From positions 1-36,505 of the forward strand of contig CAZEJX010000001.1 of the NCBI GenBank assembly GCA_964512715.1: DNA of 36,505 nucleotides. The letters are read 5' to 3'. The translations under genes were made by a program, and so were the position numbers. The notes under the pieces were generated by a model. That model was given only the letters and a program-made list of their open reading frames with translations. It was not told where the DNA came from and searched no databases. Shown piece by piece: positions 23,081-32,669 of the stretch (its first letter is position 1; each line of letters begins with the position of its first letter). This stretch comes from an uncultured Candidatus Saccharibacteria bacterium (GTDB lineage Bacteria > Patescibacteriota > Minisyncoccia > UBA6257 > 2-01-FULL-56-20).

Positions 23081-23105
23081 GATCCCTCGACAGGCTCGGG
23101 ATGAC
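23081..23105. repeat. GTCATYCC-family repeat, single half-unit (reverse orientation)
   Basis: The reverse complement reads gtcatcccgagcctgtcgagggatc. It lies between the DUF360 gene and secG. Confidence 0.7.
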
Positions 23106-25361: not shown

Positions 25362-25418
25362 AAATAACATTGTCATTCCCGCGAAGGCGGGAATCCAGCA
25401 CTGGATCCCGGATCAAGT
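25362..25418. repeat. GTCATYCC-family repeat, full inverted-repeat unit (MITE/REP-like)
   Basis: The sequence is gtcattcccgcgaaggcgggaatcc ... ggatcccggatcaagtccgggatgac, two hairpin-containing halves in inverted orientation. It ends 21 nt before the rnj ATG. Confidence 0.8.
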
Positions 25419-25439
25419 CCGGGATGACACAAAAAATAA

Positions 25440-27308
25440 ATGCCAAATCGTATACGAACTTATATTGCCCCTGGTTCGAAGCCAGCGGGCGCTCCACGGC
25501 CCGGCTCCGGGCAGGGAGGCAGTAAAAATTCACACCGTCCGCGCAATGCGCGTTCCTTCAGTACGGATCAGCCGATTACCCACTCGAGATCGTCTCACCG
25601 CGGTACGAAGGCCGTTCCGGCGCGCACGGCGAAAATAGCTCCGCCCAAGCACGACGAATTAAAATTCGTGCCGCTTGGCGGTATGGAAGAAGTGGGACGC
25701 AACTGCTCCTACTTTGAATACAAAGATGAAATCGTCATTGTGGACGTTGGTATTCAGTTCCCGGAGGAAGAGACACCGGGCATTGATTTCATCATTCCGA
25801 ATGTCTCTTCTCTTGAACCTAAGAAGAAAAATGTACGCGGTATTCTTCTGACCCACGGTCACTATGACCATATTGCGGCAATTCACTACGTGATTGAAAA
25901 ATTGGGAAATCCAGTTATCTACACGACCGCTTTTACGAAAGCCATTGTTGAAAAACGTCACGAGGAATTTCCGAACGCCCCGAAATTGCGCTTTGAAGTC
26001 GTCACGGACGGCTCCAAAGTGAAGATCTCCGAGAACTTCTCGGCAGAATTCATGCACATCGAACACACCATTCCTGAAGCGTGCGGGTTCGTACTCGACA
26101 CGCCTGCTGGCAAGATGGTGTCCTTCGGCGATTTCCGCCTGGACATCGACCGCGATGGTAACCCTCAGAATCTCGAAGTCTTTGAGCGCCTCGGCAAGAT
26201 GGATATTCACACCGCGTTCCTCGACAGTACCCGTGCGGAAGCGCCGGGGCACTGCCCGGCGGAATCGGTGGTTATTGAAAACCTCGAGCACCTTATCAAG
26301 AACGCGCCGGGCCGGATCATCATCGCTACCTTCGCTTCTATGGTGGATCGCCTCATAGAAATCATCGGCATCGCCGATCGTGTCGGAAAGAAAGTTGCCG
26401 TGAACGGCCGCTCCATGATCGCCAACTTGGATATCGCAAAGCAACTTGGATTCCTTAAGGCAAAGAAGGACGTCATGATTACCCTCGAAGAAGTGCACAA
26501 GCACCGCGACGACAAGGTAGTCATTCTTACCACTGGCACCCAGGGTGAAGCGAACGCCGGACTTATGCGCATTGTGCGCGGCGAGCACCGGGTTATTGCC
26601 TTGAAACCTACCGATACGGTTGTCTTCTCGTCATCCGTCGTGCCGGGCAACGAGCGCAGCGTGCAAACGCTTCAGGACAATATCGCCCGCCAGGTAGATG
26701 AAGTCTACAACTCCAAACTTCTCGACATTCATGCCGGCGGTCATGCCTACAGTGAAGACTTGAAGCTCGTTATGGATATCGTAAAGCCCAAATTCGTAGT
26801 ACCGATTCATGGCTACTTCTATTTCCGCAAATTCGTAGTGAAAATCGCCAAATCACTCGGCATGAAAAAAGAGCAGGTAAAGCTTATTGATAACGGCCAG
26901 CTTTCTATTCTTCGTCCGAATGAGTTTATCGTGACCGAAGAGAAAGTGCCTACAAATTACGTTATGGTTGACGGACTTGGCGTCGGCGACGTGGAGGAAG
27001 TCGTATTGCGCGACCGCGTGAATCTTTCCCAGGAAGGCATGGTGGTCGTGATCGTCGCGATCGGCGCGCACGGCAAGCTTCATAAGAATCCGGATATTAT
27101 CTCCCGCGGTTTCATCTATATCAAAGAGCACAGCACTATCCTTGAGGATATTCGTAAGCGCATTCGCGGCATCTTTGACCGCTTACCCCATGACAAGGAG
27201 ATTGATCCTGATTACGTGAAAACGCTTCTCCGGGATCAGCTTGGCCAGTTCTTGTATACCAAGACGAAACGCCGACCGATGATTTTGCCGGTGGTTATAC
27301 GGGTCTAG
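25440..27308 (+). CDS. rnj: Ribonuclease J with a ~70-aa basic, low-complexity N-terminal extension
   Basis: It has a metallo-beta-lactamase/beta-CASP core: LKFVPLGGMEEVGRNC, LLTHGHYDHIAA, and the later HAGGH and PIHG motifs. ATG 25440 is the only in-frame ATG/GTG/TTG start upstream of the conserved LKFVPLGG region. Confidence 0.9.
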   Translation: MPNRIRTYIAPGSKPAGAPRPGSGQGGSKNSHRPRNARSFSTDQPITHSRSSHRGTKAVPARTAKIAPPKHDELKFVPLGGMEEVGRNCSYFEYKDEIVIVDVGIQFPEEETPGIDFIIPNVSSLEPKKKNVRGILLTHGHYDHIAAIHYVIEKLGNPVIYTTAFTKAIVEKRHEEFPNAPKLRFEVVTDGSKVKISENFSAEFMHIEHTIPEACGFVLDTPAGKMVSFGDFRLDIDRDGNPQNLEVFERLGKMDIHTAFLDSTRAEAPGHCPAESVVIENLEHLIKNAPGRIIIATFASMVDRLIEIIGIADRVGKKVAVNGRSMIANLDIAKQLGFLKAKKDVMITLEEVHKHRDDKVVILTTGTQGEANAGLMRIVRGEHRVIALKPTDTVVFSSSVVPGNERSVQTLQDNIARQVDEVYNSKLLDIHAGGHAYSEDLKLVMDIVKPKFVVPIHGYFYFRKFVVKIAKSLGMKKEQVKLIDNGQLSILRPNEFIVTEEKVPTNYVMVDGLGVGDVEEVVLRDRVNLSQEGMVVVIVAIGAHGKLHKNPDIISRGFIYIKEHSTILEDIRKRIRGIFDRLPHDKEIDPDYVKTLLRDQLGQFLYTKTKRRPMILPVVIRV

Positions 27309-27313
27309 CTTCT

Positions 27314-27367
27314 GTCATCCCGCCGAGTCAGACCTGCCTACCGGCAGGCAGGCTTGGCGGGTTTCAT
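27314..27367 (+). repeat. GTCATYCC-family repeat with nested hairpin; probable rnj terminator
   Basis: The unit begins gtcatcccgccgag. Outer stem cccgccgag (27319..27327) pairs with cttggcggg (27353..27361). The inner hairpin is cctgcctaccggcaggcagg (27333..27352), followed by tttcattt. Confidence 0.7.
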
Positions 27368-28104: not shown

Positions 28105-29094
28105 ATGTCTAAACCAACGCTGCTCTCAGGTGTTCAGCCCACCGGAAAACTCCATATCGGTAACTACCTCGGTGCTCTCAAGAATTTCGTAGACCTTCAG
28201 AATTCCGGAAAGTACAAATGCTTCTACGGTATCGTAGATCTGCATTCGCTGACGGAAGATTTTGTTCCCGCGCACAAATCGCAGCAGATATTCGATCTTG
28301 CCGCTGATTTCATTGCAGCTGGTCTTGATCCGGAGAAATCCATTATCTTCCAGCAATCTCAAATTCCCGCGCACACCGAGCTCGCCTGGATTTTTAACAC
28401 CATCACTCCTATGGGCGAGCTTGAGCGCATGACACAGTATAAAGACAAAGCTGCCCGTCAGGAGCAGAATATCAATGTGGGGCTTTTTGATTACCCCGTT
28501 CTTATGGCGGTGGACATCTTGATCTACAGCCCGGAAATCGTGCCGGTCGGAGACGATCAAGTGCAGCACATTGAACTTACCCGTACGATCGCCAGAAAAT
28601 TCAATAAGCGATTCGGGGAAACGTTTAAGGAACCGAAAGTGCTTCTTACGGAAACCTCGCGGGTAATGAACCTTAAAGACCCTACGAAGAAGATGTCCAA
28701 ATCCGATCCGGCAGGATGTCTTTTCTTGGATGATTCCCCGGAAGTCATTATGGATAAAGTGAAGCGCGCCGTGACAGACTCTGGCACGAAGATCTTCTAC
28801 GATCCGGAAAATAAGCCGGCGCTTTCCAATTTGCTCCGTATGTACTCTGCTCTTAGCGGCGAGACTCTGCAGAACACTGAAGAGCGCTTCGCAGGTAAGA
28901 GCTACGCGCAGTTTAAGCTCGAATTAGCGGAAACGATTGCAAATCACTTTGCGCCGTTTCGCGATAAGAAAGCGAAACTTCTCAAGAAGCCCGCTGTACT
29001 TAAGAAAATTCTCCGCGAAGGTTCTGAAGCTGCCGCTAAAGTTGCGAATAAGAAACTTGCCGAGGCGAAAAAGAAGATCGGAATCGTTTTATAG
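28105..29094 (+). CDS. trpS: Tryptophan--tRNA ligase
   Basis: It has SGVQPTGKLHIGNYLG (HIGH-type), GDDQVQHIELTR and KMSKS, and is 329 aa. Confidence 0.95.
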   Translation: MSKPTLLSGVQPTGKLHIGNYLGALKNFVDLQNSGKYKCFYGIVDLHSLTEDFVPAHKSQQIFDLAADFIAAGLDPEKSIIFQQSQIPAHTELAWIFNTITPMGELERMTQYKDKAARQEQNINVGLFDYPVLMAVDILIYSPEIVPVGDDQVQHIELTRTIARKFNKRFGETFKEPKVLLTETSRVMNLKDPTKKMSKSDPAGCLFLDDSPEVIMDKVKRAVTDSGTKIFYDPENKPALSNLLRMYSALSGETLQNTEERFAGKSYAQFKLELAETIANHFAPFRDKKAKLLKKPAVLKKILREGSEAAAKVANKKLAEAKKKIGIVL

Positions 29095-29095
29095 A

Positions 29096-29127
29096 GTCAT
29101 CCTGCGGCCTGCCTGCCGGTAGGCAGG
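29096..29127. repeat. GTCATYCC-family repeat with the same nested hairpin as 27333..27352
   Basis: The unit begins gtcatcctgcgg, then cctgcctgccggtaggcagg (29108..29127), which is the exact reverse complement of 27333..27352. It starts 2 nt after the trpS stop. Confidence 0.75.
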
Positions 29128-29134
29128 TACGCAC

Positions 29135-29158
29135 CGCGCGATCTCATGAGATCGCGCG
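29135..29158. terminator. Perfect 24-bp GC-clamped palindrome between convergent trpS and ileS (possible bidirectional terminator or structure)
   Basis: cgcgcgatctcatgagatcgcgcg is self-complementary. A third tcgcgcgat word follows at 29165..29173. There is no clear U-tract on either strand. Confidence 0.45.
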
Positions 29159-29177
29159 ATCAAGTCGCGCGATAACG

Positions 29178-32100
29178 TTATGTGCGTTCGATGGAAATCT
29201 TCGCTCTGCTTTCGAAATCCTCTGTACCACTTCCTTTCTCTATCTTTGAAATATAGGTTTTTTTCGTATCAAACTGCGCGAAGGCTTTCTCAATTTCTGC
29301 GTCGGAAGTTTCGTAATGTAAAACTGCTTCCTCCCCCACCTTAAAACCTTGAGTTTTGCGAAGTTCCTGTACGAAGCGTTCTAAGTTGCGAGTTAACCCT
29401 TCGAGTTTCAGTTCGGGCGTGAGTTCGGTATCTATGTACATATATGCCGCGCCACGAACATCGGGAAGCGGATATCTCTTAATGGTAGTGTTCGTTTCAT
29501 CCTTATCCAGAAGGTCACTCACCATAGCTTTGATATTTAGTTCAGAAAGAAGTATTTCTGCTAATTCTAGATTTGTAAGAATGAGTTCATCTTTTTCTTT
29601 ATTGACTTGTATGCGTGCCAGCGGCTGGCGTACTGGAATACTAAGCTCTTTTCGAGCGGACAGTCCTGCACTTGCCACACCGCGTACAAGCTCCATCTGC
29701 TTTATTAAGTCTTGTTCCTCGCCGGTGAGCGCTTCTTTTTCCGGCCAAGGCGTTACGTGCACCGAGCCGTGCATGGCCGGGTCTTCGCACATGGTATGCG
29801 TAAGATTCGAGTAGATCACCTCCGCGAGGTGCGGCATGAACGGCGCAATGACTTTCGAGAGCACGATAAGCGTTTCGTAGAAAGCCGGAAAGAACCCGCT
29901 ATCTTCGCGACCGCGAGAGCGGCGTAAATACCAGGTAGAGAAATCATCTACGAATTTTTCTATGGCGCGTGCGGCTTTCACCGTATCGTACGCATCCAAT
30001 TGATCGGTTGTTTCTATTACAAGTTCCTTAGTGCGAGCCCGGATCCAACGGTCGAGGACGTGTTGTTTGTCATCCTGAGGCTTCGCCGAAGGATCTCCTG
30101 CTCTTCCAGAAGGTTCTTCGCTGTCGCTCAGAATGACAGTGGGAGCGTACGTCATGAAGTACTGATATACGTTCCATATAATGAGCGTTACCTTGCGATG
30201 GACGTTACCCAAATCTTTCTCGCTGAAGTTCAGATTCTCGGCCTGCATAATAGTTGACCCCATGAGATAGAATCGCAACGTGTCTACGCCGAATTTATCA
30301 ATCACTAGCCAGGGGTCGGGGTAATTATTCTTAGATTTCGACATCTTGCTGCCGTCTTCGGCGAGGATTGTGCCAGTGGTTAGGAGGTTCTCGACGGGCG
30401 CCTTATTAAACAAGGCGAAATTCATGACGTGCATCAATTGGAACCACGCACGGGTCTGGGCAATGTATTCCGCCACGAACTGCGCCGGGTAGCGATGCTC
30501 AAATACTTCCCTGTTCTCAAAGGGGTAATGGTATTCCGCGAATGGCATGGAGCCGGCTTCGATCCAGGAATCGAAAATCTCCGGCACGCGCCGTGCATTG
30601 CCGCCGCATTTCTCACATTTGACCACTACATTGTCTATATACGGGCGGTGGAGATCAGTGAGCGTAGCCTCTATAGCGTAAGGAATAGCATACTGCGGGT
30701 AATCAACTTCAACGTTCAACTCTTCAAAAACAACCCAGAGCGGATCGCCATGGCTTACTATGAGCACACGCTTTCCCGGATGTTGTGCAGTGATCTCATG
30801 CACTACCTGCATCATGCGGTTTCGAGTTTCCGTCCAGGTTTCTCCGCCTTCCGGTGCGACTTTCCACCACCCTTCTGGAGGGCGGGCTTTGTCAAAATCG
30901 CTATTATGTTTACCATTCCATACGCCGGTATTAAATTCCCGCAATCGCGCATCAGTCACGACCGGCGCGCCGGTTGCCTTGCTCACAATCTCGGCAGTCT
31001 CCTTGGTACGGATAAAATCCGAGGTAATGATGAGATCCAAACCTTTTTCTTTAAGGAGTTCTGCCCCTTTCTTTGCGCTCTCCTTGCCTTTTTCGGTAAG
31101 GTGGAAGGTGTCTTCTTTAGGATCAGAGTTCACGATATCCATCACGTTTTGCTCTGCCTCGGCATGACGCATGAAATACAACGTTGTCGGTTCAAGTTTC
31201 AGATCTGAAACCGATCCCATCACGTGGTTTTCGCCGCAGGATTCACACTTCCATACCGGGATGGGATTACCCCAATAGCGGTTGCGGGAGATATTCCAGT
31301 CCGGCGCGGATTCGAGCGTCTTTTGATAGCGGCCATGTTTCAGGTGCGCCGGGTACCAATTCATTTCCTTATCGTTTGAAGCAAGAAGCCCGGGTTTTAA
31401 TTTCTGCACGTTTACAAACCACGCCGGGATGGCGTTATAGAAGAGCATCGTGCCGCAGCGCCAGCAGTGCGGATAGGAGTGCAGGTGGTTAGCACGAGCG
31501 AAGAGCAAACCGCGCTCCTCAAGATCTTTTTTAATGACACGCTCGGCGTCTTTAAAGTACTCGCCACGGATGAACTCCGGCGCATCTTTATTAAATTTCC
31601 CCTTCTCATCCAAGAGCGGCACCACGGGCAGCCCGACTTCCAGACCCAGCTTGTAGTCATCTTCGCCGTAGACCACTGCAGTGTGGACGATGCCGGTGCC
31701 GTCTTCCGTCGTAACAAAATCGGCTGGGTATACCTTAAAAGCCTTCTCGGATTGGACCGCTTGGATATTGAAAAGCGGCTCATAGGAGAGCCCCGTGAGA
31801 TCTCTGCCCTTCATCTCCGCAACTATCTCGCAATCAGTTTTGAGAGCGACGAGTCTGCTTTTGGCGAGGATAAGTTCTTCTCCCTGAACTTTCACACGCA
31901 CGTAATCAATATCTTTACCCACTGCGAGCGCGACGTTTCCCGGAAGAGTCCAAGGCGTTGTCGTCCAGGCGAGCAGGTAAGCAGGAGTGGCGAGTGGCGA
32001 GTGGCGAGCTTGTTCGCTGCTAATCTTAAACTTCACGTACACGGATTCTTCCTGCACGTCCTTGTAGCTCGAATCCATCGCCACTTCGAAATTCGAAAGC

Positions 32101-32669
32101 GGTGTTTCACAGCGCGGACAATACAAGAGTACCTTGCGTCCCTCGTACACCAAACCTTTGTCGTAGATGGTTTTGAATGCCCACCATACCGACTCCATGA
32201 ACGTGCGGTCCATGGTTTTGTAGGAGTTCTCGAATTCCACCCAGCGACCCAAGCGGCGGACCATCTTCCCCCATTCATCCGCGAATCGGAGCACGGTAGC
32301 GCGACAGGTTTCGTTAAATTTTTGGATGCCGACTTCTTCGATTTGCTTCTTGCCGGAAATGCCGAGCTGGCGTTCCACGATTTCCTCAACCGGCAGGCCG
32401 TGACAATCCCAACCCCAGCGTCGGCGCACAAAATGCCCGCTCATGGTTTGGTAGCGAGGGATAAGATCTTTTATCGTAGAGGCTAAAATATGCCCATAGT
32501 GCGGCAGACCGGTAGCAAACGGCGGGCCATCGTAGAAGGTATACGGAGCGCCGCTTTTGGTCTTTTCAAGCGATTTCTCGAAGGTCTTATCGTTCTCCCA
32601 AAAATCAGCTACTCGCTCTTCGAGCTCAGGAATAGAGAGAGCATCATCAAAAGGCTTTTTATCCTGCAT
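29178..32669 (-). CDS. ileS: Isoleucine--tRNA ligase (type 2-like) carrying a nested histidine-phosphatase domain and an in-frame repeat-element insertion
   Basis: It has PHYGH (HIGH), the WTTTPWTLP editing-domain motif, KMSKS, and the zinc knuckles CPRC, CWRC, CESCG and CEKCGG. The ORF is 1163 aa and uninterrupted. Confidence 0.95.
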   Translation of the reverse strand: MQDKKPFDDALSIPELEERVADFWENDKTFEKSLEKTKSGAPYTFYDGPPFATGLPHYGHILASTIKDLIPRYQTMSGHFVRRRWGWDCHGLPVEEIVERQLGISGKKQIEEVGIQKFNETCRATVLRFADEWGKMVRRLGRWVEFENSYKTMDRTFMESVWWAFKTIYDKGLVYEGRKVLLYCPRCETPLSNFEVAMDSSYKDVQEESVYVKFKISSEQARHSPLATPAYLLAWTTTPWTLPGNVALAVGKDIDYVRVKVQGEELILAKSRLVALKTDCEIVAEMKGRDLTGLSYEPLFNIQAVQSEKAFKVYPADFVTTEDGTGIVHTAVVYGEDDYKLGLEVGLPVVPLLDEKGKFNKDAPEFIRGEYFKDAERVIKKDLEERGLLFARANHLHSYPHCWRCGTMLFYNAIPAWFVNVQKLKPGLLASNDKEMNWYPAHLKHGRYQKTLESAPDWNISRNRYWGNPIPVWKCESCGENHVMGSVSDLKLEPTTLYFMRHAEAEQNVMDIVNSDPKEDTFHLTEKGKESAKKGAELLKEKGLDLIITSDFIRTKETAEIVSKATGAPVVTDARLREFNTGVWNGKHNSDFDKARPPEGWWKVAPEGGETWTETRNRMMQVVHEITAQHPGKRVLIVSHGDPLWVVFEELNVEVDYPQYAIPYAIEATLTDLHRPYIDNVVVKCEKCGGNARRVPEIFDSWIEAGSMPFAEYHYPFENREVFEHRYPAQFVAEYIAQTRAWFQLMHVMNFALFNKAPVENLLTTGTILAEDGSKMSKSKNNYPDPWLVIDKFGVDTLRFYLMGSTIMQAENLNFSEKDLGNVHRKVTLIIWNVYQYFMTYAPTVILSDSEEPSGRAGDPSAKPQDDKQHVLDRWIRARTKELVIETTDQLDAYDTVKAARAIEKFVDDFSTWYLRRSRGREDSGFFPAFYETLIVLSKVIAPFMPHLAEVIYSNLTHTMCEDPAMHGSVHVTPWPEKEALTGEEQDLIKQMELVRGVASAGLSARKELSIPVRQPLARIQVNKEKDELILTNLELAEILLSELNIKAMVSDLLDKDETNTTIKRYPLPDVRGAAYMYIDTELTPELKLEGLTRNLERFVQELRKTQGFKVGEEAVLHYETSDAEIEKAFAQFDTKKTYISKIEKGSGTEDFESRAKISIERT
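30068..30136. repeat. 69-nt GTCATYCTGAG inverted-repeat element inserted in frame inside ileS
   Basis: The sequence is gtcatcctgaggcttcgccgaaggatc...gaaggttcttcgctgtcgctcagaatgac. The termini gtcatcctgag and ctcagaatgac are inverted repeats. It translates as VILSDSEEPSGRAGDPSAKPQDD, between the NVYQYF and DRWI motifs. Confidence 0.8.
30654..31232 (-). other. Histidine phosphatase (phosphoglycerate-mutase-like, branch 1) domain nested in IleRS
   Basis: The insert is 193 aa, between CESCG and LHRPYID. It carries LYFMRHAEAEQN, LTEKGKESA, IITSDFIRTKETAEIV, RLREFNTGVWNG, GETWTE and LIVSHGDPL, which align with GpmB/CobC-type enzymes. Confidence 0.8.

What the first reader, a model, noticed from the sequence alone, without database searches (positions are those of the whole stretch)
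30068..30136. Palindromic repeat element inserted in frame within the essential ileS coding sequence (Rickettsia-RPE-like behaviour)
A 69-nt segment (23 codons) has inverted termini gtcatcctgag / ctcagaatgac and two internal hairpin-prone halves (cttcgccgaag, and cgaaggatc versus ggttcttcg). It belongs to the same GTCATYCC word family seen in intergenic regions at 23081, 25362, 27314 and 29096.

Here it is translated as VILSDSEEPSGRAGDPSAKPQDD, in the variable loop between NVYQYFMTYA and DRWIRA at the start of the anticodon-binding region. Its length is a multiple of 3 and the reading frame is preserved. This resembles the in-frame insertion of Rickettsia palindromic elements into protein genes, which is rarely documented outside a few lineages.
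Basis: seen in the sequence. Interest (0 to 1): 0.6.

Follow-up and report, generated by a model that had tools for sequence, protein, structure and literature searches.

The report
In-frame Ssn-type hairpin repeat in ileS
The only isoleucyl-tRNA synthetase gene of this ultra-small (Patescibacteria) bacterium carries, in frame, a 69-base two-armed copy of a hairpin DNA repeat related to the repeats that flank small Ssn-type nuclease genes in many bacteria; it is read through as a floppy 23-residue loop, much as Rickettsia palindromic elements are.

Summary
It is a 69-nt palindrome of 23 codons in the only stop-free frame, inside the genome's single ileS.

It is a gene-less "dyad" of a dispersed hairpin family, (T/C)GTCAT-stem-loop-stem-ATC. 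The genome has 58 strict copies, against 1 in a reversed-sequence control.

This family looks like the NTS/SRM repeats of the Ssn GIY-YIG single-strand nucleases (Chenal et al. 2025, PMC11893778). Four of the genome's five small GIY-YIG genes are bracketed by such hairpins. The joined ends of one of them (C17) match the ileS element at 54/62 positions. The ileS arms do not fit the paper's own search string.

None of 114 other IleRS loops measured carries the peptide. A same-genus orthologue has a different dispersed palindrome in the same loop. valS of this genome has a half-unit in the homologous loop, and uvrA, dusB, cca, prmC and nifS/iscS also carry in-frame copies.

AlphaFold models the insert mostly as low-confidence coil between two confident helices.

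Mobilisation by Ssn is inferred, not shown. No empty-site allele was found, and read data could not be checked.

The parts
30069..30137 (-). 69-nt two-armed (dyad) hairpin repeat, read in frame as IleRS residues 845-867 (VILSDSEEPSGRAGDPSAKPQDD)
   Evidence: It is identical at 56 of 61 positions to the intergenic dyad C16:8286-8346. It matches the joined ends of the C17 GIY-YIG unit at 54 of 62 positions; the best of 500 shuffles gives 45. Only frame 1 of either strand is stop-free.
30112..30137 (-). 5' arm on the coding strand: GTCATTCTGAGCGACAGCGAAGAACC. The head GTCAT is preceded by T. The stem is ATTCT/AGAA with a tandem G.A, and the closing ATC has decayed to ACC.
30069..30095 (+). 3' arm, read on the + strand as GTCATCCTGAGGCTTCGCCGAAGGATC. 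It is an intact half-unit in inverted orientation.
29178..32669 (-). ileS, 1163 aa, the only IleRS match in the genome. It also carries a His_Phos_1 domain at residues 497-651.
   Evidence: One search finds a single match in G000.
25372..25428 (+). Intergenic dyad 12 nt before the ORF that starts at 25440. The left arm TGTCATTCCCGCGAAGGCGGGAATCCAG matches the published Neisseria NTS consensus at 27 of 28 positions (my comparison), and both arms fit the published SRM search string.
   Evidence: consensus quoted.
23081..23105 (-). Single half-unit GTCATCCCGAGCCTGTCGAGGGATC. It is not coding; the ORF that spans it looks spurious.
27314..27367 (+). Variant hairpin that starts with GTCATCCCGCC and holds an inner CCTGCCTACCGGCAGGCAGG hairpin. 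It sits just after the ORF ending at 27308. The end coordinate is approximate.
   Evidence: read directly from the sequence.
29096..29173 (+). Compound hairpin element between the convergent ends of the upstream ORF (stop at 29094) and ileS (stop at 29178). Its left arm starts with GTCATCCTGCGG. Its right arm is a decayed GTTATCGCGCGACTTGATCGCGCGATC unit.
   Evidence: read directly from the sequence.

Best explanation
The 69 nt are a gene-less, two-armed copy of an Ssn-related hairpin repeat. In effect they are the two terminal hairpins of a small GIY-YIG (Ssn-type) nuclease unit with the nuclease gene missing.

The element now lies in the variable linker between the last helix of the IleRS catalytic body and the first helix of the anticodon-binding domain. 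It survives there for three reasons. Its length is a multiple of three. It sits in the one reading frame of the dyad that has no TGA stop. It encodes a hydrophilic, probably disordered loop that the enzyme tolerates.

Shown here:
- it is a palindrome and is in frame;
- it has near-identical intergenic copies;
- the peptide is absent from orthologues;
- other repeats hit the same loop in relatives and in valS;
- hairpins of the same subfamily bracket GIY-YIG genes in this genome.

Inferred, not shown:
- it arrived by insertion, since no empty-site allele was found;
- an Ssn-type nuclease is involved in spreading such hairpins, which the authors of the Ssn paper offer only as a hypothesis;
- the peptide is a neutral passenger;
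- the two opposed hairpins make ileS single-stranded DNA a substrate for the cognate nuclease, as NTS does in Neisseria.
For: Anatomy and frame.

Family size:
- 58 strict hairpins in 830 kb against 1 in the reversed genome.
- 31 pattern matches against 0 in the control.
- The base before GTCAT is T in 41 and C in 14 of the 58, against roughly 23% T before all GTCAT words.
- Stem positions co-vary (ATCCT..AGGAT, ATTCT..AGAAT, ATCCC..GGGAT) around an invariant tandem G.A.

Nearest copies: C16:8286-8346, 56 of 61 positions; joined ends of the C17 GIY-YIG unit, 54 of 62, shuffles at most 45.

Link to Ssn:
- Four of the five small GIY-YIG genes in this genome are bracketed as T|GTCAT-hairpin ... 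gene ... hairpin-ATGAC|A. Two have this subfamily of hairpin and two the canonical NTS type.
- PF01541 (GIY-YIG) is confirmed for three of them.
- By my reading, about 16 of the 30 homologues fetched from other genomes and phyla are bracketed in the same way on both sides, and a few more on one side.
- The paper describes this architecture and shows ssDNA-specific cleavage beside NTS.

Orthologues.

The same loop is hit repeatedly:
- The G001 (same genus) ileS loop holds two inverted copies of a different hairpin. One copy is an exact member of a family with 15 copies in G001 and 0 in the control.
- G014 has yet another palindrome there.
- valS of this genome has a half-unit in the homologous loop.

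Other in-frame copies occur in uvrA, dusB, cca, prmC and nifS/iscS.

Structure: residues 850-865 are coil, and pLDDT is 49-68 across 841-870, between helices at 94-97.

The identical gene, insert included, is present in an independent Logan assembly of SRR12313481.
Against: - No empty-site allele exists in the collections searched. The closest IleRS is only 66% identical over the query region (residues 760-1000), and the 90% cluster of P0001 has one member. Insertion is therefore inferred from comparison, not seen.
- Removing the 23 residues would leave a 6-residue loop, shorter than any of the 114 other loops measured (minimum 12). Either native loop residues were lost as well, or the true boundaries differ.
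- No target-site duplication is visible.
- The ileS arms do not fit the degenerate SRM search string published for Ssn-related motifs, although the dyad at 25371-25429 does.
- Three hairpin-rich genomes (Desulfosporosinus, Lachnospiraceae AD3010, Fibrobacter) gave no homologue of this GIY-YIG at E <= 1e-6.
- One of the two same-subfamily GIY-YIG genes here (C17) looks frameshifted.
- No transposition activity has been shown for any Ssn protein.
Confidence: 0.8

Rival explanations
1. Exapted element. The hairpin or its peptide now has a function of its own in ileS. It could be an mRNA structure that paces translation between the catalytic and anticodon-binding domains, a loop that contacts tRNA or a partner, or a protected Ssn recognition site that limits recombination across this essential gene.
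For: The hairpin is stable (-33.7 kcal/mol, z = -4.4) and sits exactly at a domain boundary. The 3' arm is intact and the 5' arm has only one decayed closing base. In Neisseria, NTS repeats modulate the integration of transforming DNA.
Against: Relatives fill the same loop with unrelated sequences and with different palindromes, so nothing is conserved at the peptide or RNA level. The modelled peptide is low-confidence coil. Six other genes carry similar copies at unrelated places.
Confidence: 0.1
2. REP/REPIN-type repeat mobilised by a RAYT (Y1, IS200/IS605-like) transposase rather than by anything related to Ssn.
For: The architecture resembles REP doublets that form hairpins: a short conserved 5' head, an imperfect palindrome, and inverted pairs. 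Y1_Tnp genes occur in 12 of 21 hairpin-rich genomes.
Against: There is no Y1_Tnp match in this genome, nor in 9 other hairpin-rich genomes, including a complete one-contig genome with 60 copies. Nine of the ten Y1-like genes inspected have no GTCAT hairpin beside them; the tenth has a pair about 900 nt downstream. The GIY-YIG genes, by contrast, are bracketed precisely.
Confidence: 0.04
3. Not an insertion. It is a native, lineage-specific variable loop that resembles the repeat by chance or that grew a palindrome in place.
For: The loop is variable in length (12-34 residues). P0006 shares the string RAGD at about the same place. Removing the element leaves an implausibly short loop.
Against: It is 56/61 identical at the nucleotide level to an intergenic copy, and 54/62 to the ends of a GIY-YIG unit, far above shuffles. 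It has the precise T|GTCAT...ATGAC|A boundaries shared with all other dyads. The family is conserved across phyla.
Confidence: 0.03
4. Assembly artefact: a repeat-induced chimeric join placed the hairpin inside ileS.
For: Palindromic repeats can confuse short-read assemblers. The genome is a 94-contig draft. Reads could not be checked.
Against: The reading frame is preserved, and both flanks are the correct adjacent IleRS sequence. An independent Logan assembly of SRR12313481 gives the identical 3492-nt gene. Six other genes show the same kind of in-frame copy.
Confidence: 0.03

Closest known systems
NTS / Ssn-related motifs (SRM) and the Ssn family of single-domain GIY-YIG ssDNA nucleases (SsnA of Neisseria meningitidis, CDD cd10448; Chenal et al., Nat Commun 2025, PMC11893778)
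   Same: - An oriented head (C/T)GTCAT directly 5' of an imperfect palindrome that closes with ATC.
- Tens to hundreds of dispersed copies in many phyla.
- Inverted copies bracketing a GIY-YIG gene of about 90-96 residues.
- A dyad in this window (25371-25429) fits the paper's NTS consensus and its SRM search string.
- Hairpin type tracks the nuclease subtype in this genome.
   Different: - The ileS arms belong to a subfamily (CTGAG...CGAAG stem with a tandem G.A) that the published SRM search string does not capture.
- The copy is intragenic and translated. About 17-19% of hairpins in this genome are inside genes, against the 2% the paper reports for N. meningitidis.
- The CDD assignment of the local GIY-YIG proteins and any nuclease activity were not tested.
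Rickettsia palindromic elements (RPE; Ogata et al. 2000 and 2002, as summarised in PMC10969869)
   Same: A palindromic repeat family found both between genes and in frame inside unrelated housekeeping genes. The copies are translated as extra peptide segments at places compatible with the fold.
   Different: RPEs are about 150 bp, belong to ten Rickettsia families, and each encodes a conserved peptide. This element is 69 nt and occurs in a Patescibacteria genome. Its translations match no NCBIfam model at E <= 10. The Ssn paper lists Rickettsia among the species with more than 300 SRMs, so a real relationship is possible but was not tested here.
REPINs / BIMEs with RAYT transposases (Bertels and Rainey 2011, PMC3116915)
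   Same: Two inverted short palindromes with a conserved 5' head form a larger hairpin. They are dispersed and mostly extragenic, and are associated with a single small nuclease-type gene flanked by the repeats.
   Different: The associated gene is a GIY-YIG nuclease, not a Y1 (HUH) transposase. No Y1_Tnp is present in this genome.
[quoted passage not shown]
   Same: A short, gene-less element with inverted termini. Its ends match those of a longer gene-carrying unit. One copy is nested inside another at C45:2084-2176.
   Different: No target-site duplication is seen. The gene in the longer unit is not a recognised transposase, and transposition has not been demonstrated.

Membership tests
NTS/SRM repeats (Ssn-related motifs) | Oriented head H-GTC-W-Y immediately 5' of an imperfect palindrome, with a conserved closing ...C after the stem | tested here: met
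   Both arms start with T-GTCAT. The 3' arm closes with GGATC and the 5' arm closes with AACC, one decayed base. Across the 58 strict hairpins the preceding base is T or C in 55.
NTS/SRM repeats (Ssn-related motifs) | Fits the published degenerate search string HGTCWYN(0-2)YYVSBRHN(0-5)WNVSBRGN(0-2)RNCYNB | tested here: not met
   Neither arm of the ileS element matches, whereas both arms of the dyad at 25371-25429 do. In this genome the string gives only 8 hits against 4 in the control, so it captures the local repeats poorly.
NTS/SRM repeats (Ssn-related motifs) | Many dispersed copies, far above the shuffled or control expectation | tested here: met
   58 against 1 and 31 against 0. In 12 genomes of other lineages there are 15-364 copies against 0.
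NTS/SRM repeats (Ssn-related motifs) | The same hairpin type flanks, in inverted orientation, a single-domain GIY-YIG (ssn) gene of about 90-100 aa | tested here: met
   C10:362-727 and C17:11691-12023 are bracketed by this subfamily. C44 and C3 are bracketed by the canonical type. PF01541 is confirmed for the C10, C44 and C3 proteins. By my reading about 16 of 30 homologues elsewhere are bracketed on both sides.
NTS/SRM repeats (Ssn-related motifs) | The GIY-YIG protein belongs to CDD cd10448, and the hairpin is bound and cut as ssDNA only | not testable with these tools
   No CDD search and no biochemistry are available. NCBIfam gave no informative match.
Rickettsia palindromic elements (RPE) | Palindromic repeat present in frame inside protein-coding genes and translated | tested here: met
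   The ileS frame is intact across the element. Six further genes have in-frame copies. Translation itself is inferred from the open frame of the genome's only ileS.
Rickettsia palindromic elements (RPE) | Sequence membership of one of the RPE families (about 100-150 bp, conserved encoded peptide) | tested here: not met
   The element is 69 nt. Ten translations of local dyads hit no NCBIfam family at E <= 10. I did not confirm that RPE domain models are in that library, and no Rickettsia genome was compared directly.
Rickettsia palindromic elements (RPE) | Insertion at a place compatible with the fold (surface loop) | tested here: met
   In the AlphaFold model, residues 850-865 are coil with pLDDT 49-68 across 841-870, between helices 817-849 and 871-892 at pLDDT 94-97. 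Solvent exposure was not computed.
MITE | Terminal inverted repeats plus a target-site duplication | tested here: not met
   Inverted termini are present (10 of 11). The flanks are T|...|A with no duplicated bases in any of the 11 dyads.
MITE | Derived from an autonomous element that encodes its transposase | tested here: inconclusive
   The ends match a GIY-YIG unit at 54 of 62 positions. No GIY-YIG protein of this kind is a demonstrated transposase.
REP/REPIN with RAYT | A Y1 (HUH) RAYT gene in the genome, flanked by the repeats | tested here: not met
   There is no PF01797 match in G000. Nine of the ten Y1-like genes inspected in other genomes have no GTCAT hairpin beside them.

The most novel reading that the evidence does not exclude
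Ssn-type GIY-YIG units may be genuine, very small mobile elements. Their gene-less hairpin dyads would repeatedly colonise permissive surface loops of essential proteins across bacteria. In that case the 'protein-coding palindromes' of Patescibacteria, and perhaps at least some Rickettsia RPEs, would be one phenomenon with one candidate mobilising enzyme, and a general source of loop insertions in reduced genomes.
Probability: 0.25. Interest if true: 0.8.

Novelty: new variant of a known kind. Interest (0 to 1): 0.5.

Why it matters
In-frame palindromic repeats inside essential genes have been a curiosity of Rickettsia for 25 years, with no known mobilising enzyme.

Here the same behaviour appears in a Patescibacteria genome, for a repeat that can be tied by sequence to a described nuclease-and-hairpin system (Ssn/SRM). 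That gives a concrete enzyme to test.

It also shows that the Ssn-related repeats, reported as almost always extragenic in Neisseria, can make up a sizeable share of protein-length variation in a gene-dense, reduced genome. Certain loops are hit again and again, here the linker before the anticodon-binding domain of class Ia synthetases.

For annotation, it warns that odd peptide segments such as VILS...QDD, ...LRMT or ...RGNDK in housekeeping proteins are translated repeats, not lineage-specific functional motifs.

Tried and rejected
- **Rfam.** Nothing at gathering threshold in the window. The permissive scan of 29950-30250 gave only a chance snoRNA match.
- **RAYT/Y1 transposase as partner.** Absent from this genome, absent from 9 of 21 hairpin-rich genomes, and nine of ten Y1-like genes inspected have no hairpin beside them. 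Rejected.
- **Literature by sequence.** The 12-mers occur only as unrelated primers. No paper combines Patescibacteria or CPR with in-frame palindromes or RPE. No paper links GIY-YIG with MITEs in bacteria. COG2827/YhbQ terms gave nothing useful. The Ssn paper turned up, and no later paper extends it to coding regions.
- **Empty-site allele.** The closest IleRS in 5.8 billion proteins is 66% identical over the query region, and the 90% cluster has a single member. I therefore did not spend the metagenome scan on it.
- **RPE homology.** Translated dyads hit no NCBIfam model. Ogata 2002 is not held, and the Ssn paper's supplements are not held.
- **NCBIfam and PDB for the small GIY-YIG proteins.** Nothing informative.
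- **Spanning ORFs that are not coding.** Hairpins at C1:23081, C30:8712 and C63:2785 have spanning ORFs but on inspection are not coding: the ORFs look spurious or the hairpin is 5' of the start. Matches at C25:10829, C50:4120 and C50:5033 were not inspected and look like chance matches inside genes.
Full report
**What is there**

ileS lies on the minus strand at 29178-32669 and encodes a 1163-residue IleRS. It is the only IleRS match in this 830-kb, 94-contig genome.

On the coding strand it reads GTCATTCTGAGCGACAGCGAAGAACCTTCTGGAAGAGCAGGAGATCCTTCGGCGAAGCCTCAGGATGAC. The termini are inverted repeats matching at 10 of 11 positions.

As RNA the strand folds into one hairpin of -33.7 kcal/mol, with z = -4.4 and 0 of 200 shuffles as stable. 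The 69 nt are 23 codons, residues 845-867, VILSDSEEPSGRAGDPSAKPQDD. They sit directly before the Pfam Anticodon_1 domain at 873-1017.

Only frame 1 of either strand of the dyad is free of TGA stops, and the ileS copy is in that frame.

**The repeat family in this genome**

The unit is a half-hairpin: (T/C)GTC-AT(C/T)C(C/T)GAG...CGA(A/G)G(A/G)AT-C, often followed by TTCT.

A strict structural search asked for GTCAT, a stem closed by ATC, and at least two further inward pairs. It finds 58 copies, against 1 in the reversed genome. The simple pattern finds 31, against 0.

The base before GTCAT is T in 41 and C in 14 of the 58. Stem positions co-vary (ATCCT/AGGAT, ATTCT/AGAAT, ATCCC/GGGAT) around an invariant tandem G.A.

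Two inverted half-units make 'dyads' of 57-113 nt, bounded T|GTCAT...ATGAC|A, with no target duplication. The two arms can belong to different subfamilies. One small dyad is nested inside another at C45:2084-2176.

The copy nearest to the ileS element is intergenic, at C16:8286-8346, and is identical at 56 of its 61 positions.

**The family is pan-bacterial and looks like the published NTS/SRM repeats**

An exact-pattern scan of one genome per species found the half-unit in many lineages. These include Bacteroidota, Chloroflexia, Ignavibacteria, Nitrospirales, Bacillota, Gemmatimonadota, Acidobacteriota, Fibrobacter and Bdellovibrionota. Isolates are among them: Legionella massiliensis, Hymenobacter, Mucilaginibacter and Lachnospiraceae AD3010.

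Twelve of those genomes hold 15-364 copies each, with 0 for the reversed control. In Patescibacteria, 76 of 301 genomes have the pattern, in a patchy distribution.

While checking coding copies I found that C10:362-727 is two inverted half-units around a 92-residue GIY-YIG ORF. The genome has five such small GIY-YIG genes. Four are bracketed precisely by T|GTCAT-hairpin ... hairpin-ATGAC|A:
- C10 and C17 carry the ileS-type hairpin. The C17 copy looks frameshifted.
- C44 and C3 carry the type GTCATTCCCGCGAAGGCGGGAATCC.

Pfam confirms GIY-YIG for the three proteins tested. By my reading, about 16 of 30 homologues fetched from 18 other genomes of several phyla are bracketed the same way on both sides, and a few more on one side.

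The joined ends of the C17 unit align with the ileS element at 54 of 62 positions. The best of 500 shuffles gives 45.

This is the system described by Chenal et al. 2025 (PMC11893778):
- The NTS consensus is CGTCATTCCCGCGMAVGCGGGAATCYRG, and the wider class is called Ssn-related motifs (SRM).
- The repeats flank ssnA, a 94-residue single-domain GIY-YIG nuclease.
- The nuclease binds the hairpin as single-stranded DNA only and cuts a few bases upstream.
- The NTS-ssnA-NTS layout is noted to resemble an insertion sequence, and mobility is offered only as a hypothesis.

The window's dyad at 25371-25429 fits both the NTS consensus (27 of 28, my comparison) and the paper's SRM search string. The ileS arms do not fit that string. 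I therefore file the ileS element as a variant subfamily, on the strength of architecture and its cognate GIY-YIG genes.

Close homologues of the C44 nuclease (about 66-79% identity over roughly 95 residues) occur in Omnitrophota, Zixibacteria, Rhodocyclales, Campylobacterota and Patescibacteria. That pattern points to horizontal spread.

**Is it an insertion?**

In 29 relatives' loci and 114 other database IleRS sequences, the loop between ...TYA and LD.W is mostly 15-20 residues (range 12-34). Here it is 29. None of the others carries this peptide.

The closest sequences are only 61-66% identical over the query region. They have 15-residue loops with no repeat.

Two caveats apply. No empty-site allele exists in the collections searched. 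And taking out the 23 residues leaves only 6, so native loop residues were probably lost as well, or the history is more complex than a clean insertion.

**The loop is a repeated landing place**

- The same-genus orthologue (G001) has a 34-35-residue loop in the same place. It is built from two inverted copies of a different hairpin, CCGCCGAAGCTTTAGCGAAGGCGG. That hairpin has 15 copies in G001 at up to 3 mismatches, against 0 in the control, and the exact copy inside ileS is one of them.
- G014 has yet another palindrome in this loop.
- In this genome's valS, a half-unit (DPSLSLRMT) sits in the homologous loop, as a BLASTP alignment of the two segments shows.

**Other in-frame copies in this genome**

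uvrA and dusB each carry a 25-residue dyad. cca, prmC and nifS/iscS each carry a half-unit. The host genes were named with NCBIfam.

About 10-11 of 58 hairpins are therefore intragenic, roughly 17-19%.

**Structure**

AlphaFold was run with 66 aligned sequences and gave mean pLDDT 83.8. Helix 817-849 runs into the start of the insert. Residues 850-865 are coil, with pLDDT 49-68 across 841-870. Helix 871-892 follows at pLDDT 96.

This fits a tolerated, probably exposed loop. Exposure itself was not computed.

**Reality of the sequence**

An independent Logan assembly of run SRR12313481 contains the identical 3492-nt gene. The tool for finding sequencing runs was closed, so reads were not examined.

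**Mechanism, with status of each step**

Shown: the element is a gene-less dyad of a hairpin family whose members bracket Ssn-type nuclease genes. It is in the single open frame, in a loop that tolerates variable sequence.

Inferred: it entered by the same unknown process that disperses these hairpins, and purifying selection kept only an in-frame, stop-free outcome. The peptide is probably a neutral passenger. By analogy with Neisseria, single-stranded ileS DNA of either strand would carry one forward hairpin and could be cut by a cognate Ssn.

A Y1/RAYT partner was tested and rejected.

**Comparison and novelty**

The behaviour matches the Rickettsia palindromic elements as summarised in PMC10969869, but membership of the RPE families was not shown. 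The Ssn paper lists Rickettsia among SRM-rich species, so a real link is possible and worth testing.

I found no paper in the held library that describes Ssn-related hairpins translated inside essential genes, or in-frame palindromes in Patescibacteria. Earlier notes of this scan report similar cases in other genomes. They agree with this report but are not independent evidence.

Verdict: a real, ordinary-looking member of a phenomenon that is little described in print. It is best called a new variant of a known kind.

Noticed in passing
window 30654-31232 (IleRS residues 497-651): A complete His_Phos_1 (histidine phosphatase) domain is nested inside the IleRS catalytic body (Pfam E = 2.1e-35). 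Most relatives in the order and in the protein database carry it too. It is already the subject of another finding on this genome.
   Followed up: partly
G000 contig C10:362-727, C17:11691-12023, C44:1279-1650, C3:1704-2064: Four small GIY-YIG (Ssn-like) genes are each bracketed by inverted GTCAT hairpins. The hairpin subfamily tracks the protein subtype. The C17 copy appears frameshifted. A fifth GIY-YIG gene (C31:8007-8237) has no hairpins; a tRNA-like sequence lies just upstream (not tested).
   Followed up: yes
G000 contig C51:862-2190 (nifS/iscS): Besides the half-unit KILRFAQND, this cysteine desulfurase contains the 20-residue segment EFRSENLGFRKNPQSSILNP twice, about 60 residues apart. 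It looks like another translated repeat.
   Followed up: no
G000 contig C45:2084-2176: A 29-nt perfect hairpin GTCATCGCGCGACTTGATCGCGCGATGAC is nested, with T|...|A flanks, inside the loop of a larger dyad. This suggests successive insertions.
   Followed up: partly
window 27314-27367 and 29096-29127; also L162, L171: An inner hairpin CCTGCC(T)RCCGGYAGGCAGG recurs inside the stems of GTCAT hairpins here and in other Patescibacteria genomes, as if it were a separate module nested in them.
   Followed up: no
window 25372-25428; G000 C16:8286-8346; C63:2785-2865: Several intergenic dyads end a few bases before a gene's start codon: 12 nt before the ORF starting at 25440, and just before an MreB-like gene and a TatD-like gene (both named by eye, not tested). 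The terminal ...ATGAC itself contains an ATG. Earlier notes of this scan describe 'start-codon-seeking' copies.
   Followed up: no
G030:C4:926-3598 (relative reported as same order): The IleRS match of this relative contains 15 and 6 in-frame TGA codons in its two pieces, as if TGA were read as an amino acid there. The window's genome has none.
   Followed up: no
L100:5262-5540 (Pseudobacteriovorax MAG) and L068:4219-4384: Outside Patescibacteria the same half-unit forms tandem arrays of 4-5 copies with a 37-38-nt period. It also forms dyads almost identical in form to the ileS element.
   Followed up: partly
(homologues of the C44 GIY-YIG protein): Proteins of about 95 residues that are roughly 66-79% identical occur in Omnitrophota, Zixibacteria, Rhodocyclales, Campylobacterota and Patescibacteria.
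   Followed up: no
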